From: a virus
UHGV virus genome: UHGV-0074610
Strand: one strand, 5' to 3'
Length of the DNA stretch: 19,386 nt
The notes under the pieces were generated by a model that saw only the letters and a program-made list of their open reading frames with translations, had not been told where the DNA came from and did no database searches. Each line of letters opens with the position of its first letter. Position 1 is the stretch's first letter. Both the position numbers and the translations under genes were made by a program. This document shows, in pieces, positions 10,930 through 15,157 of this stretch.

Positions 10930-11399
10930 GGTCTTGGCCACTCCCTGTTAAGCGCAATATCAATGATGCTGCTGTTGATAATGTAATCAGGGAACTCTCC
11001 CCAGCCAGGAGCAAGAATCGGTCTCTCCCATAGCTCAAGCGTGGCGGTGAATCGCCAGTAATTTCCTCCCTCAATAGTTGGCCCTTCGTAGATGTCTACA
11101 AACCGGCAAACGTACATATCTATAATGCCAAGGGGTGATCGAAGAGGCATGTTGAACCAGTCGGCACCATCTTTGATAGTGTCTCTGTACCATGCCTCAA
11201 ACAATTGAGCCTCCGGATCTGTAAACAACCATGCCACTGATGCCTGAGTTGGCGTTGATGTGTACAGACGGCGCTGCCTTGCCCTGCCAGATGTAAGCTC
11301 TGTTCTCAGCAATGGGCTAACAGGCTTTAACCCGAATCCTTCCTGCAATGGAACAGGCAGGTAATCATTCGGATAGTTAATGCTGGTAGTTTTAGCCAT
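10926..11399 (-). CDS. minor tail protein (gpM-position, distal tail)
   Basis: 157-aa ORF; its ATG overlaps the tape measure stop (TAATG at 11395-11401). Assigned by position immediately after the tape measure gene. Confidence 0.55.
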   Translation of the reverse strand: MAKTTSINYPNDYLPVPLQEGFGLKPVSPLLRTELTSGRARQRRLYTSTPTQASVAWLFTDPEAQLFEAWYRDTIKDGADWFNMPLRSPLGIIDMYVCRFVDIYEGPTIEGGNYWRFTATLELWERPILAPGWGEFPDYIINSSIIDIALNREWPRP

Positions 11400-13924
11400 T
11401 AACCCGTTCTCCTGTTAGTGTTCCAGCGCATCATCGCTTTTGAAATGCTACCTTTTCCGCTCGCAAGGTCACTGGCCGCCTGTTGATAACCAAGCTTTGC
11501 CCCTTCTGTAGTTGCTTTTTTCATCATGGCAATTTGAGTGTCGGAAGGATCACCGTTCACATTCATGTTTATAACTGGTGAGAAACTGGCCCCCTGAGTA
11601 GACTGCTGGTTTACCCTGTCGAGTGTTTCGTCAAGCTTGGCAGAGGTTTGAGAAGTTACGACTCGCTCCCCTTTCTGAAGAAGCCAGGTCCCGGTTTCTG
11701 GAACGCTGTCGATACCATCGTGCGCCATGCCTGCAAGGGCCGAAGTACCAACGGCTGCTACAAGAGGTGCAGTTACCGCCGCCGCTGTTGCCATCGCAGC
11801 AGGCGCAAGCGCTGGACCAACGATAGGAATTGCCGCTGTAGATGCATAAGCGGCGATCTGAGCCTGTAAAGATGAAGCCTGTGCGTTTGCCAGCATTGAT
11901 GCCGCTGCGCTTGCCTGAGTGGATTTACCTACCAGCAATTGCACAGCCTGATATACCAGCCACTGCGCCGCCATATCAGAAAGGGTTTTAATGATTGTTT
12001 CACCAAGGCCAGAGAAAATATTACTGAAGAAATCACCTAAATCCTCTGCACCATGCACAAGATCATTCAGGTTGTCAGAGATGGATTCCGTTGCGCCATT
12101 AAGAATGGAGGTCATCGCATCGGCGGCGGTCTGGTAGTAATCAGCGGAGTTATCAGCGTAATCATTCAACGCATCCATAATCCCGCTTTGCCAGTCACCC
12201 ATCTGTGCGTCGGACTTTTTGTAATAGTCCTGCTGAATATCGAGACGCTCATCAAGTGCCTGCTGTAACGCTGCCGTCTCCTGGTCATAAAGCGATTTAC
12301 TGATATCGCCGCTTTGGTATTGCTTCTGAAGGTCTGCCTGTCTGTCGAGAAAACTACGCTGAATATCCAGCAATTCCTTCATGCGCTGGCGAGTCTTATC
12401 GCCCATGCCTGCGCCAATAAAATCAGAATCATTTGCTGCCTGGTCATTCTGATTTTGCTTGCGCAAATTAGCGGTAAATTCGACAAGCTTCAGGTTTTCT
12501 TCGTTGGCTTTTTTCAGAGAGTTGAGACGGTCTATTTCCGTAGCAAGCTGCTCAAGACGCTCTTTCTGAGCTGCATTAATCCCTGTTAATTTTCCGGAAG
12601 TGAAATCAAAACGCAGCTTCTCAAGCTCGGTGACCTGCTGATTCTTTTTGCCAGTTGTGTCAATTAACGCAATCTGGCGCTGATAACTCATTTCCAGAGA
12701 CTTAAATGCTGATTCCAGCTTCTTGGCCCCGGCATCAGGCGACGCTTTACCGTTTGTTTCTCCTGAGCCTAAGGAATAATTTTTGCTGGTTGATGATGGC
12801 CCACCTATGGTGGCAGGACTGAGAGGAAGATTATTGCCGGCTTTCATGATGGAAAGTCGGCGTTCGAGCTGTGCTATTTCAGCTTTCTTCCCGTCAACGT
12901 CCATACCAATTCTGTTAAAACTGGCAAGGAAGCCCTGGTCTTCTACATCTGCTTTGAGGTTGTTGAGACGACGCTCTATATCAGTTACAGATGCATTCTC
13001 ACCAACGGCCTTACCGCCTTTGTACAGGTCAATCAACTTACCTGCTTCAGCGCCAACTTTCACAAGCCAGGTAGCCAGGTCAACAACGCCGCCAACCAGG
13101 TCTGTTAGTCCCTGAATCACCTGCGGGTCTTTGAAAACATCGCCCATGTCAGTGATCGCATTCTGTAATCCTGACAGGTCAACATTTGCAAGGCCGGTAG
13201 CAATCTCAATTTTTACGCCGTTAACCTGCGTCTCCATGTCTTCAAACAGGGAGTTTACTTTCACCAGTTTTTCGATGTCTGCATCATCAGGAGCAACACC
13301 GAACTGCTTTGCCGCGTCCATGTACTGGCGAAGCTTTTCACCACCCTGATCAAGCAAGGGCAGGAGCTTTGACAGGTCATTACCAAGGCTTTCGAGAATG
13401 GTTGTTTTTTCGGCGTTTGTTTTTATCTTGCCAAGAGCATCACTGATAGCGAGAAGTTGCTTGTCAGGCGATTCCCCGGCTAGTTTTTTTGCGGATAATC
13501 CAAGCGCATCAAGTGCACCGACAGCTTCCCCAGATTTATTTAAGACCGCATCACCAATCTTATCGCCAATATCCTTAAAGATATCGGCCATCTGGTCACC
13601 AGATACACCTGCTTTTTCTGCGGCATATTGCCAGGCCAGCAGGGACTGAGTAGACATATTGAGCGACTTCGCCCAACGGTCTGTTTCAGTAATCTGTTTG
13701 GAAGTGGTTTTCAGCAGGTTATAACCAGCAACACCTACACCAATTGCTGCAGCGCTTGCTGCTGTCGCAAAAGCGGTAAACGCGGTCGCCGCAGCCTTGG
13801 CGTCGGATTGTACCTGTTTACGCCATTTTTGAGATGCTCGCTCAGACTGGCTAAGGCCAGAGACAAAACCACCAACCTTAGCCACCAGGTCAATAGTCAA
13901 CGTGCCGAGGGATTTACCAGCCAT
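11399..13924 (-). CDS. tail tape measure protein
   Basis: 841-aa Ala/Gln/Leu-rich, largely helical protein; the largest gene in the tail module and directly downstream of the chaperone frameshift pair. By the established rule of roughly 0.15 nm of tail per tape-measure residue this predicts a non-contractile tail of about 125 nm (inference). No sheath-sized gene is present. Confidence 0.9.
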   Translation of the reverse strand: MAGKSLGTLTIDLVAKVGGFVSGLSQSERASQKWRKQVQSDAKAAATAFTAFATAASAAAIGVGVAGYNLLKTTSKQITETDRWAKSLNMSTQSLLAWQYAAEKAGVSGDQMADIFKDIGDKIGDAVLNKSGEAVGALDALGLSAKKLAGESPDKQLLAISDALGKIKTNAEKTTILESLGNDLSKLLPLLDQGGEKLRQYMDAAKQFGVAPDDADIEKLVKVNSLFEDMETQVNGVKIEIATGLANVDLSGLQNAITDMGDVFKDPQVIQGLTDLVGGVVDLATWLVKVGAEAGKLIDLYKGGKAVGENASVTDIERRLNNLKADVEDQGFLASFNRIGMDVDGKKAEIAQLERRLSIMKAGNNLPLSPATIGGPSSTSKNYSLGSGETNGKASPDAGAKKLESAFKSLEMSYQRQIALIDTTGKKNQQVTELEKLRFDFTSGKLTGINAAQKERLEQLATEIDRLNSLKKANEENLKLVEFTANLRKQNQNDQAANDSDFIGAGMGDKTRQRMKELLDIQRSFLDRQADLQKQYQSGDISKSLYDQETAALQQALDERLDIQQDYYKKSDAQMGDWQSGIMDALNDYADNSADYYQTAADAMTSILNGATESISDNLNDLVHGAEDLGDFFSNIFSGLGETIIKTLSDMAAQWLVYQAVQLLVGKSTQASAAASMLANAQASSLQAQIAAYASTAAIPIVGPALAPAAMATAAAVTAPLVAAVGTSALAGMAHDGIDSVPETGTWLLQKGERVVTSQTSAKLDETLDRVNQQSTQGASFSPVINMNVNGDPSDTQIAMMKKATTEGAKLGYQQAASDLASGKGSISKAMMRWNTNRRTG

Positions 13925-13925
13925 G

Positions 13926-14237
13926 CTATGTCCACTCCTGCATAGCCTGTTCCAGTGAAATGGAAGGCTCGTTAATGTGTGGTGTGAAGTCTGTTACTTT
14001 GAAGGAGGGTGAATCTTTTCCACGGTTGACGTTTGCCAGCACAGAAGAAATTAGGCCAGCGGCCCATTCGGTACGCATCATTCCGTTAAGGCTTCCGTAC
14101 TTTTGACGGTAAAGAACCCAGTCGCGATACTCTGTAACGCTAACGCGTTCTTTTGCTTCAGCAATGGTGCGTCCGCCGATCCCGTTGAGAACTAATTCAC
14201 ACCAGAATTCGTCGTCTGCGCTGAGTTCGCCTTTCCC
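13926..14237 (-). CDS. -1 frameshift extension of the tail assembly chaperone (gpGT-like fusion C-terminal part)
   Basis: From the slippery heptamer G GGA AAG (minus-strand sense, plus coordinates 14231-14237) the -1 frame stays open for about 100 codons (GKGELSADDEFWCELVLNG...EQAMQEWT) and ends at a TAG (13926-13928) one nucleotide before the tape measure ATG. Translated by hand. Confidence 0.5.
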   Translation of the reverse strand, partial: GKGELSADDEFWCELVLNGIGGRTIAEAKERVSVTEYRDWVLYRQKYGSLNGMMRTEWAAGLISSVLANVNRGKDSPSFKVTDFTPHINEPSISLEQAMQEWT

Positions 14238-14569
14238 AGGTCGTTAACCTGCTGAATAGCGACAAGCAGAGCAACCGTAAGAGCACCATCGAGTGCGCCG
14301 CGCTCAGGATCTGCTTCACCAGTGATATCGGCAACAGTGAAAACTGGAGCGCCATTTTCATCACAGATGGATGCAGCGATACGCCCTGCTACACCATCAA
14401 TTTTCCCCACCGCTGAAAGAACATTTGATACCGCGTCGTGATACCCCATTGGTCGGATATAAACGGTAGCGGTGATCTCCTTATCGCCCTGCTTCCAGGT
14501 GATTTCCTTCTCAACAGGACGACCAGTGAACGACCCTGCCTGTTTTAACGAATCCAGATTCAGTTTCAT
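14192..14569 (-). CDS. tail assembly chaperone (gpG-like)
   Basis: 125-aa ORF between major tail protein and tape measure, ATG start with GAGGAAA upstream; contains the in-phase slippery site near its 3' end. Confidence 0.7.
   Translation of the reverse strand: MKLNLDSLKQAGSFTGRPVEKEITWKQGDKEITATVYIRPMGYHDAVSNVLSAVGKIDGVAGRIAASICDENGAPVFTVADITGEADPERGALDGALTVALLVAIQQVNDLGKANSAQTTNSGVN
14231..14237 (-). promoter_or_regulatory. programmed -1 ribosomal frameshift slippery site G GGA AAG
   Basis: Plus-strand CTTTCCC is GGGAAAG on the coding strand, phased X XXY YYZ with the chaperone reading frame (codons CTG GGA AAG). Identical to the phage lambda G/GT slippery heptamer. Confidence 0.6.
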
Positions 14570-14586: not shown

Positions 14587-14602
14587 GCGGGGTTTCCCCC
14601 GC
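14587..14602 (-). other. intercistronic stem-loop with GAAA (GNRA) tetraloop between major tail and chaperone genes
   Basis: 6-bp GC-rich stem GCGGGG / CCCCGC with 4-nt loop (GAAA on the minus-strand transcript), 15 nt after the major tail stop and about 18 nt before the chaperone ATG; no U-tract follows on the minus strand. Confidence 0.3.
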
Positions 14603-14619: not shown

Positions 14620-15117
14620 TTAGCTCGTTGGCAGGGCCTTTGGAACCCAAACACCCTGCCCTGAACGCTGAATAGTTGCGGAAGTTTGCACGACCGTATT
14701 CGCCTGGAAGTCGAACGGGAAATCTGAAACATAGCCCTGGAACACATACCAGGTACGTGTATCCGGCAGAGAAAGACCATCAACTGCATCAGGATCACCA
14801 GACGTCGCTACCGTTGGTTCATCCGTTCCGTCAGCCCAGCCAATAGCGAAGGTCAGGTTTGTCTGGTCACTGGATTCAGCAAGGTTGCTCAACATGACAT
14901 GGCTGGCGTTTGCCGGGTCTGCGTTAAGAGCTACAGTAGCCTGACCGGGAGTGCGCAGACCTTTTTTATAGGAACGAGTATTGGTTTCACTCAGACAGGT
15001 ATCTTCAATCTGATCTGCCGGACTACTACCTGGTGAGAACGAAGTAATACATTCAACTTCACTGACCACACCGTTATTCAGAACGTACATCTGAGTGCCT
15101 TGAGTCACTACTGACAT
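14620..15117 (-). CDS. major tail (tube) protein
   Basis: 165-aa ORF with GGAG RBS, immediately upstream of the chaperone/frameshift/tape-measure trio, which is the conserved position of the siphovirus major tail protein. Assigned by position. Confidence 0.65.
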
Positions 15118-15133
15118 AATTATCTCCGGGTAT

Positions 15134-15157
15134 AAAAAAACCGGCTCAAGGCCGGTT
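15134..15157 (-). terminator. rho-independent terminator-like hairpin plus U7 tract, upstream of the major tail protein gene
   Basis: Stem AACCGGC / GCCGGTT (7 bp, 5-nt loop) at 15139-15157; on the minus-strand transcript it is followed directly by UUUUUUU (plus-strand A-run 15134-15140). Lies between the stop of the 121-aa gene and the GGAG RBS of the major tail gene. Confidence 0.4.

What the first reader, a model, noticed from the sequence alone, without database searches (positions are those of the whole stretch)
13926..14237. Lambda-type G GGA AAG programmed -1 frameshift producing a chaperone fusion that ends at the tape measure start
The heptamer G GGA AAG is in the correct X XXY YYZ phase near the 3' end of the chaperone gene. 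The -1 frame stays open for about 100 codons through the otherwise unannotated 13926-14191 gap and stops at a TAG one nucleotide before the tape measure ATG. This reproduces the conserved gpG/gpGT arrangement of long-tailed phages and accounts for the only sizeable gap in the late operon.
Basis: partly seen in the sequence, partly recalled or inferred. Interest (0 to 1): 0.4.

Follow-up and report, generated by a model that had tools for sequence, protein, structure and literature searches.

The report
Phage tail chaperone G/GT frameshift site
This is the ordinary, well-known "slippery" signal that lets a long-tailed phage make two tail-assembly chaperones from one stretch of DNA; it is real and strongly conserved here, but it is a routine member of a textbook class.

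Summary
The heptamer G GGA AAG (14237-14231) is in X XXY YYZ phase at codons 112-113 of a 125-codon tail assembly chaperone gene (14569-14192). The -1 frame is open for 101 codons after the slip. It ends at TAG 13928-13926, one base before the tape measure ATG (13924).

- The upstream part matches Pfam Phage_TAC_13.
- The -1 extension matches Pfam Phage_tail_T, the lambda gpT family.
- GGGAAA is invariant at the equivalent codon in all 121 related loci (48-100% protein identity, Citrobacter to Halomonas).
- Wobble-position variability moves from the 0 frame to the -1 frame at the heptamer.
- The window's -1 frame has no start codon for 50 codons after the slip.
- The closest characterised relative, phage HK022 gp13/gp14 (70% identity, same heptamer, same codon), is annotated as a frameshift fusion.

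No downstream stimulatory structure exists, which I recall is also true of lambda.

One correction. In lambda, gpG and gpGT are absent from mature virions. Induced-cell lysate must be assayed instead.

Verdict: a real, new member of a known kind, of low interest. It is useful mainly as an annotation fix, because PGAP calls only a 51-aa T fragment in close relatives.

The parts
14620..15117 (-). Major tail tube protein gene (165 aa), immediately upstream of the chaperone gene
   Evidence: Pfam PF16460 Phage_TTP_11, E 1.8e-66; phrog_158 major tail protein
14192..14569 (-). 0-frame tail assembly chaperone gene (gpG analogue, 125 aa including a 12-codon tail after the heptamer)
   Evidence: ORF list and translation; Pfam PF16459 Phage_TAC_13, E 2.4e-34 over residues 6-109; phrog_1749 tail assembly chaperone, E 1.8e-43
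14231..14237 (-). Slippery heptamer G GGA AAG in X XXY YYZ phase (0-frame codons 112-113, Gly-Lys)
   Evidence: Phase computed. GGGAAA is invariant and the 7th base is G (A in two) in 91 distinct aligned homologues. It sits in phase at the equivalent codon in 121 of 121 loci.
13926..14231 (-). -1 frame extension (gpT analogue): 101 sense codons read from G14231, plus stop TAG 13928-13926. The frameshift product is join(14569..14231, 14231..13926) = 214 aa.
   Evidence: Translation; Pfam PF06223 Phage_tail_T, E 1.5e-10 over fusion residues 144-211; phrog_337, residues 119-213. Wobble periodicity is in the -1 frame. There is no ATG/GTG/TTG in this frame before ATG 14081.
13926..14081 (-). Internal-ATG 51-aa ORF inside the T frame. 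This is the piece that automatic annotation calls 'tail assembly protein T'. It is probably not an independent gene.
   Evidence: ORF list. PGAP annotation of the equivalent ORF in E. coli PCP07014. T-family homology starts 20-45 residues upstream of this ATG.
14247..14250 (-). Weak Shine-Dalgarno-like AGGU, 10 nt 5' of the heptamer. About half of the homologues carry 5-8 nt matches such as AGGAGGU at this spot. A role as stimulator is unproven.
   Evidence: Count over 91 distinct homologues; not conserved
13935..13939 (-). AGGAG ribosome-binding site of the tape measure gene, embedded in the last codons of the T frame (10 nt before ATG 13924)
   Evidence: Read directly from the sequence
11399..13924 (-). 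Tail tape measure protein gene (841 aa), starting one base after the T stop codon
   Evidence: ORF list; Pfam PF09718 Tape_meas_lam_C, E 8.5e-10; phrog_2854, E 1.4e-281

Best explanation
This is a lambda-type programmed -1 ribosomal frameshift in the tail assembly chaperone gene of an HK022-like siphovirus prophage, probably of Citrobacter.

Most ribosomes read the chaperone gene in frame and make a 125-aa G-like protein.

A small fraction slip back one base at G GGA AAG. At that moment tRNA-Gly sits in the P site and tRNA-Lys in the A site. They re-pair from GGA/AAG to GGG/AAA. Translation then continues in the -1 frame for 101 codons and gives a 214-aa G-T fusion that ends one base before the tape measure start codon.

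By analogy with lambda, many copies of G and a few of GT coat the tape measure protein. The T domain recruits the major tail tube protein, and both chaperones leave before the tail is finished.

Shown here: the sequence anatomy, the homology of both halves, the conservation of the heptamer, the frame switch of purifying selection, and the lack of any start codon for T.

Inferred, not shown: that the fusion protein is actually made, its ratio to G, and the protein interactions.
For: - Phase, open frame and stop position are as stated.
- Gene order is tail tube, chaperone, T frame, tape measure. Pfam hits are Phage_TAC_13 (E 2.4e-34) for the upstream part and Phage_tail_T (E 1.5e-10, above the curated cut-off) for the -1 part. 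PHROG tail chaperone and tail protein hits agree.
- All 121 related loci from viral and bacterial genome collections (48-100% identity) carry GGGAAAG, or GGGAAAA in two, in phase at codon 107-113, followed by 93-108 open -1 codons. The 0-frame stop, by contrast, wanders from 3 to 55 codons downstream.
- In 91 distinct aligned sequences the six bases GGGAAA are invariant, including synonymous positions, while flanking wobble positions vary.
- Mean column entropy peaks at 0-frame codon position 3 upstream of the heptamer (1.23 bits against 0.57 and 0.33). Downstream it peaks at -1-frame position 3 (1.16 bits against 0.36 and 0.28).
- The -1 frame opens only 3-4 codons upstream of the slip in 75 of 108 distinct loci. 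It has no ATG/GTG/TTG before +50 codons in the window, and none before +9 in any locus.
- HK022 gp13/gp14, 70% identical with the same heptamer at the same codon, is deposited as a joined frameshift CDS. A paper lists HK022 among phages whose tail chaperone frameshift was confirmed experimentally (PMC5313236).
- G_GGA_AAG is described as highly shift-prone in E. coli, and it is the lambda G/GT site (PMC5009743; PMC3296357).
Against: - No protein-level evidence exists for this sequence.
- No stimulatory RNA structure lies downstream. Folding z-scores are +0.5 and +0.9, and the consensus fold has 0 pairs. Efficiency therefore rests on the heptamer alone and may be low. That would be in keeping with the low level reported for lambda (about 4%).
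- Direct pairwise similarity to lambda gpGT is weak (26% over 93 aa, E 0.033). The G half belongs to a different Pfam family from the one I recall for lambda gpG, so the link to lambda itself runs through profile matches and through HK022.
- Whether this prophage is intact and expressed is unknown.
Confidence: 0.93

Rival explanations
1. The T region is an independent small gene translated from the internal ATG at 14081 (51 aa), as PGAP annotates in related prophages. On this view the heptamer is irrelevant.
For: An ATG exists at 14081. An ATG lies at +50 or +51 codons in 84 of 108 distinct loci. RefSeq annotates the equivalent 51-aa ORF as 'phage tail assembly protein T'.
Against: The 50 codons between the heptamer and this ATG evolve under -1-frame purifying selection. 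They are part of the T-family match, which starts at fusion residue 144 for Pfam and 119 for phrog_337, whereas the ATG is at about residue 164. No start codon of any kind could serve those codons. No Shine-Dalgarno motif stands at a proper distance before ATG 14081 (sequence). This reading also does not explain the invariance of GGGAAA at synonymous positions.
Confidence: 0.04
2. The same G-T fusion is made, but by RNA polymerase slippage (transcriptional realignment) at the GGGAAAG run rather than by ribosomal slippage.
For: It would yield the same protein. The sequence data here cannot formally tell the two apart.
Against: From general knowledge, transcriptional slippage needs homopolymer runs of roughly 6-9 or more identical bases, and here the runs are only 3 G and 3 A. 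The strict X XXY YYZ phase conservation in 121 of 121 loci is the signature of tandem tRNA re-pairing, whereas polymerase slippage has no codon-phase requirement. The review treats the lambda G-T event as ribosomal frameshifting involving tRNA-Lys, and PMC3296357 shows its rate depends on tRNA-Lys U34 modification.
Confidence: 0.02
3. A chance heptamer next to a chance open frame, or a frame-disrupting mutation or sequencing error in what was once a single gene.
For: GGGAAAG is no more frequent in the window than in shuffles. In-phase XXXYYYZ heptamers are common, with 19 in the other genes.
Against: The same two-frame layout with the same heptamer occurs in 108 distinct sequences from many genera. 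A 101-codon open -1 frame is rare in this window (1.6% of positions). Both halves have significant family matches.
Confidence: 0.01

Closest known systems
Escherichia phage HK022 gp13 / gp14 tail assembly chaperones (AF069308)
   Same: 70% amino-acid identity over the whole 214-aa fusion. The heptamer GGGAAAG is identical, in phase, at the same codon (112). Gene order is the same: major tail, chaperone, frameshift extension, tape measure. It is deposited as a two-piece frameshift CDS, and PMC5313236 reports it as experimentally confirmed.
   Different: The HK022 0-frame product is 161 aa, with 48 codons after the heptamer, against 125 aa and 12 codons here. Its T part is 107 codons against 101. 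Its T stop lies 19 nt before the tape measure start, against 1 nt here. No nucleotide-level match was found by megablast.
Phage lambda gpG / gpGT
   Same: [quoted passage not shown] The T extension is in the same Pfam family, PF06223. The position between the major tail gene and the tape measure gene is the same. No downstream structure was found here, and from memory lambda needs none either. The expected mechanism and function are those summarised for lambda in PMC5009743.
   Different: From memory, lambda gpG belongs to another Pfam TAC family, whereas this one is Phage_TAC_13. Pairwise similarity is marginal (26% over 93 aa, E 0.033). The lambda T part is about 145 aa against 101. In lambda the T ORF overlaps the start of H, whereas here stop and start are separated by one base.
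Pseudomonas phage D3 orf17 / orf18 and related Klebsiella, Pseudomonas and Vibrio siphophage chaperone pairs
   Same: 60-65% identity in two tblastn pieces in different frames, with the same arrangement. They are annotated 'tail assembly chaperone | tail protein'.
   Different: Most of these records list two separate ORFs rather than a joined frameshift CDS. The hosts differ.
E. coli dnaX gamma/tau -1 frameshift
   Same: A -1 slip on an X XXY YYZ heptamer ending in A AAG, decoded by the single enterobacterial tRNA-Lys. About half of the homologues of this locus carry an SD-like AGGAGGU 10 nt upstream. From memory that is the dnaX spacing.
   Different: The window has only AGGU at that place. 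No downstream hairpin exists. In dnaX the shift truncates the protein, whereas here it extends it.

Membership tests
Conserved G/GT-type tail assembly chaperone -1 frameshift of long-tailed dsDNA phages (Levin 1993; Xu, Hendrix & Duda 2004) | Two overlapping ORFs located between the major tail (tube) gene and the tape measure gene | tested here: met
   Tail tube 14620-15117, chaperone 14192-14569, -1 ORF 13926-14243 and tape measure 11399-13924, all on the minus strand
Conserved G/GT-type tail assembly chaperone -1 frameshift of long-tailed dsDNA phages (Levin 1993; Xu, Hendrix & Duda 2004) | A slippery heptamer X XXY YYZ, in 0-frame phase, inside the overlap of the two ORFs | tested here: met
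   G GGA AAG at 14237-14231. It is in phase and is the only such heptamer in the chaperone ORF.
Conserved G/GT-type tail assembly chaperone -1 frameshift of long-tailed dsDNA phages (Levin 1993; Xu, Hendrix & Duda 2004) | The downstream ORF has no start codon or ribosome-binding site of its own near its 5' end, so it can be expressed only as an extension | tested here: met
   The first ATG/GTG/TTG in the -1 frame is 50 codons after the slip. Coding constraint starts at the heptamer.
Conserved G/GT-type tail assembly chaperone -1 frameshift of long-tailed dsDNA phages (Levin 1993; Xu, Hendrix & Duda 2004) | The slip site and the two-frame layout are conserved among homologues despite sequence divergence | tested here: met
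   121 of 121 loci, 48-100% identity. GGGAAA is invariant in 91 distinct sequences.
Conserved G/GT-type tail assembly chaperone -1 frameshift of long-tailed dsDNA phages (Levin 1993; Xu, Hendrix & Duda 2004) | The fusion protein is actually produced at a low, fixed ratio to the short product | not testable with these tools
   This needs a western blot, mass spectrometry or a reporter assay. Lambda values are about 4%, or 30:1.
Conserved G/GT-type tail assembly chaperone -1 frameshift of long-tailed dsDNA phages (Levin 1993; Xu, Hendrix & Duda 2004) | Both products are required for tail assembly but are absent from mature virions | not testable with these tools
   This property of lambda is stated in PMC5009743. 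It is not testable from sequence.
Pfam PF16459 Phage_TAC_13 (tail assembly chaperone) | Score above the curated gathering threshold over the full-length domain | tested here: met
   118 bits against a cut-off of 28.8; residues 6-109 match profile positions 1-98 of 98
Pfam PF06223 Phage_tail_T (lambda minor tail protein T) | Score above the curated gathering threshold | tested here: met
   41.7 bits against a cut-off of 25.9; fusion residues 144-211 match profile positions 1-70 of 73
dnaX-type stimulated -1 frameshift (upstream SD-like element plus downstream hairpin) | A stable, conserved stem-loop a few nucleotides 3' of the heptamer | tested here: not met
   MFE z-scores are +0.90 (98 nt) and +0.54 (61 nt). 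RNAalifold on 91 sequences gives 0 pairs.
dnaX-type stimulated -1 frameshift (upstream SD-like element plus downstream hairpin) | An SD-like sequence about 10 nt 5' of the heptamer | tested here: inconclusive
   The window has only AGGU (4 nt). Of 91 homologues, 47 have matches of 5 nt or more, including AGGAGGU in 24. The element overlaps Gln-Glu-Val codons and is not conserved.

The most novel reading that the evidence does not exclude
In this HK022/D3-like chaperone family the frameshift rate may be tuned by an internal Shine-Dalgarno-like element (AGGAGGU) placed 10 nt upstream of the heptamer. I recall dnaX using the same spacing. The element is present in about half of the lineages. In the window's Citrobacter-type lineage it has decayed to AGGU, and the 0-frame tail is also shortest there. 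If true, G:GT stoichiometry would be set differently in sister lineages of one family, and the window would represent the 'unstimulated' state.
Probability: 0.15. Interest if true: 0.3.

Novelty: new member of a known kind. Interest (0 to 1): 0.1.

Why it matters
The main value is for annotation. The correct gene model is a 214-aa joined CDS, join(14569..14231, 14231..13926) on the minus strand. Automatic pipelines instead leave a gap or call a 51-aa fragment, as seen in a 93%-identical E. coli prophage.

The locus also adds a clean comparative data set: 108 distinct sequences with an invariant GGGAAA and a frame switch of selection exactly at the heptamer. That illustrates how conserved the G/GT recoding signal is from Enterobacteriaceae to Halomonas.

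It does not open a new question. The mechanism, the function and even the same heptamer in the closest relative (HK022) are already established.

Tried and rejected
- Megablast of the 900-nt region against phage records found nothing. Protein-level search was needed.
- A downstream stimulatory structure was looked for in two ways: single-sequence folds of 61 and 98 nt, and a consensus fold of 91 homologues. Neither showed any.
- A Rfam scan of the whole window found no family. The tRNA scan found none.
- A PDB sequence search with the fusion gave only noise, with best E 0.06 to an unrelated protein.
- NCBIfam had no model for the fusion.
- Direct BLASTP against lambda gpGT was marginal (E 0.033), so the link to lambda rests on the Pfam profile.
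- I could not read Xu et al. 2004, 2013 or 2014, which are not held. Their content is cited only through the Atkins review and secondary citations.
- I briefly suspected that the major capsid gene was missing between the portal and connector genes. The E. coli relative shows it lies upstream of the portal gene, outside the window.
- The family assignments were already far above threshold, so those runs would not have changed the verdict.

Full report
**Observation.** The late operon of this window lies on the minus strand. A 125-codon ORF runs from ATG 14569 to a stop at 14194-14192.

Reading the minus strand, the heptamer GGGAAAG occupies 14237-14231. Because (14569-14236) mod 3 = 0, the 0-frame codons are CTG GGA AAG. 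The heptamer is therefore in X XXY YYZ phase at codons 112-113.

Re-reading from G14231 in the -1 frame gives 101 sense codons and then TAG 13928-13926. C13925 follows, and then the ATG (13924) of an 841-codon ORF. The -1 frame is closed by TAA 14246-14244, so it opens just 4 codons before the slip.

**Is it more than chance?** The heptamer on its own is not. GGGAAAG occurs twice in the window against 2.13 expected from shuffles. The other 17 long ORFs contain 19 in-phase XXXYYYZ heptamers.

What is unusual is the combination. None of those 19 heptamers is followed by more than 36 open -1 codons. Only 1.6% of 5744 codon positions in the other genes are followed by 101 or more open -1 codons, with a median of 7.

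**What the two halves are.**
- The ORF upstream (14620-15117) is a lambda-like tail tube protein (PF16460, E 1.8e-66).
- The 841-aa ORF downstream is a tape measure protein (PF09718; phrog_2854, E 1.4e-281).
- In the conceptual 214-aa fusion, residues 6-109 match Phage_TAC_13 (PF16459, E 2.4e-34).
- Residues 144-211 match Phage_tail_T (PF06223, E 1.5e-10; 41.7 bits against a cut-off of 25.9). This is the family of lambda gpT.
- PHROGs agrees: phrog_1749 tail assembly chaperone covers residues 1-118, and phrog_337 tail protein covers residues 119-213.

**Comparative evidence.** A tblastn search of phage records found 77 records. The best is HK022 and its kin at 70% identity, in two pieces in two frames.

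The HK022 record annotates gp14 as a two-piece CDS 'presumed to be expressed as the downstream part of a translational frameshift product'.

Scans of viral contigs and of one genome per species returned 120 more loci, at 48-100% identity. They come from Citrobacter, Buttiauxella, Enterobacter, Atlantibacter, Erwinia, Pantoea, Rosenbergiella, Pseudomonas, Stenotrophomonas, Marinobacter, Salinicola, Halomonas and others.

Across the 121 related loci (HK022 included) and the window itself:
- GGGAAAG, or GGGAAAA in two Stenotrophomonas loci, lies in phase at codon 107-113.
- It is followed by 93-108 open -1 codons.
- The 0-frame stop, by contrast, wanders from 3 to 55 codons downstream.

In an alignment of 91 distinct sequences the six bases GGGAAA are invariant, although three of them sit at synonymous positions. 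The bases right after the heptamer form a variable linker whose indels are multiples of three.

Column entropy by codon position shows the frame switch directly. Upstream of the heptamer the most variable position is 0-frame position 3 (1.23 bits against 0.57 and 0.33). Downstream it is -1-frame position 3 (1.16 bits against 0.36 and 0.28).

In no locus does the -1 frame hold an ATG, GTG or TTG within 9 codons of the slip. In the window the first is ATG 14081, 50 codons downstream. The conserved T-family sequence between the heptamer and that ATG can therefore be translated only by ribosomes arriving from the chaperone frame.

**Stimulatory elements.** Folds of 61 and 98 nt 3' of the site are no more stable than shuffled sequences (z +0.54 and +0.90). 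The consensus fold of 91 homologues predicts no pair at all. Rfam has no match in the window.

From memory, lambda likewise needs no downstream structure. G_GGA_AAG is described as highly shift-prone in E. coli (PMC5009743).

Upstream, 47 of 91 homologues carry an SD-like match of 5-8 nt, AGGAGGU in 24 of them, ending 10 nt before the heptamer. The window has only AGGU (14250-14247). The element coincides with Gln-Glu-Val codons and is not conserved. I record this as a possibility, not a finding.

**Mechanism.** The tandem slip re-pairs tRNA-Gly from GGA to GGG and tRNA-Lys from AAG to AAA. It gives the same Gly-Lys dipeptide in both frames, as described for lambda (PMC3296357).

In lambda about 96% of ribosomes stay in frame, and the G:GT ratio of about 30:1 is critical. 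The G moiety binds the tape measure protein. The T moiety binds the major tail protein and recruits it. Neither chaperone is found in the finished virion.

I infer the same here from homology and synteny. Nothing at the protein level was or could be tested.

A practical consequence follows. Lysates of induced cells are the right material.

**Rivals.**
- Independent translation of a 51-aa T from ATG 14081 is what PGAP annotates in a 93%-identical E. coli prophage. It fails to explain the -1-frame constraint and the T-family homology upstream of that ATG, and it fails to explain the invariant heptamer.
- Transcriptional slippage is unlikely on runs of three. It also would not demand codon phase, which is kept in 121 of 121 loci.
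- Chance or sequencing error is excluded by 108 distinct sequences sharing the layout.

**Comparison with the known.** This is an orthologue of HK022 gp13/gp14 and a distant relative of lambda G/GT. It shares lambda's heptamer and T family, but its G belongs to a different TAC family, and pairwise similarity to lambda is only marginal. A paper lists HK022 among the phages in which the tail chaperone frameshift was confirmed experimentally (PMC5313236).

All sequence-testable defining features of the G/GT class are met. Production of the fusion and its absence from virions cannot be tested here.

**Verdict.** The finding is real and correctly interpreted, but ordinary: a new member of a known kind. 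Its value is as an annotation correction, join(14569..14231, 14231..13926) on the minus strand, 214 aa.

Noticed in passing
window 3465-5033 (+): A 522-aa ORF encodes a highly hydrophobic protein with many apparent membrane-spanning stretches. It has no match in Pfam, PHROGs, NCBIfam or PADLOC. It follows gtrA-gtrB-gtrC and lies in a 33-35% GC stretch. In the related E. coli prophage an IS66 element sits at this place instead. It may be a second serotype-specific O-antigen-modifying enzyme.
   Followed up: partly
window 726-3432 (+): A GtrA / GtrB / GtrC-like O-antigen conversion cassette (phrog_2224, phrog_841, phrog_4829; Pfam GtrA_DPMS_TM, Glycos_transf_2, Glucos_trans_II) sits next to the tail spike gene. 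It is a typical lysogenic-conversion moron, with GC falling to 33%.
   Followed up: partly
window 14587-14602: A perfect GC-rich hairpin, GCGGGG-GAAA-CCCCGC on the minus strand, lies in the 50-nt spacer between the tail tube gene and the chaperone gene. No T-run follows it on the coding strand. It could damp or stabilise expression between the abundant tube protein and the chaperones.
   Followed up: no
window 15139-15157 (-): A terminator-like hairpin, AACCGGC-CTTGA-GCCGGTT followed by TTTTT, lies between the tail completion gene (ends 15170) and the tail tube gene (starts 15117), in the middle of the late operon.
   Followed up: no
window 16933-17817 (-): A 294-aa ORF lies between the portal and head-tail adaptor genes. 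It matches PHROGs labelled 'portal protein' (phrog_1289; also the C-terminal third of the 859-position profile phrog_2271, whose N-terminal half matches the true portal). It also has a CBM_5_12 hit near its C-terminus. PGAP calls it hypothetical. In the E. coli relative the major capsid gene (645 aa, possibly a protease-capsid fusion) lies upstream of the portal gene, outside this window.
   Followed up: partly
window 5077-7287 (-): The tail spike or fibre gene has a conserved N-terminal anchor (Tail_spike_N) and a C-terminal Peptidase_S74 intramolecular chaperone domain. Its GC of 36-38% is well below the 47-51% of the rest of the tail module, which suggests a swapped receptor-binding module.
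   Followed up: no
L005, L008-L010, L013-L015, L018, L021 (codon 55 of the chaperone gene); window 14401-14407 equivalent: Several close relatives carry a second in-phase GGGAAAG or GGGAAAA at codon 55 of the chaperone gene. Its -1 frame stops after one codon, so a slip there would abort the protein. The window reads GGG AAA at this spot and is not slippery there.
   Followed up: partly
window 50-421 (-); L124 3439-4372: A UmuD/HumD-like ORF lies at the prophage end (phrog_3469). In the E. coli relative the prophage lies next to a truncated isocitrate dehydrogenase gene, which suggests integration at the icd site.
   Followed up: no
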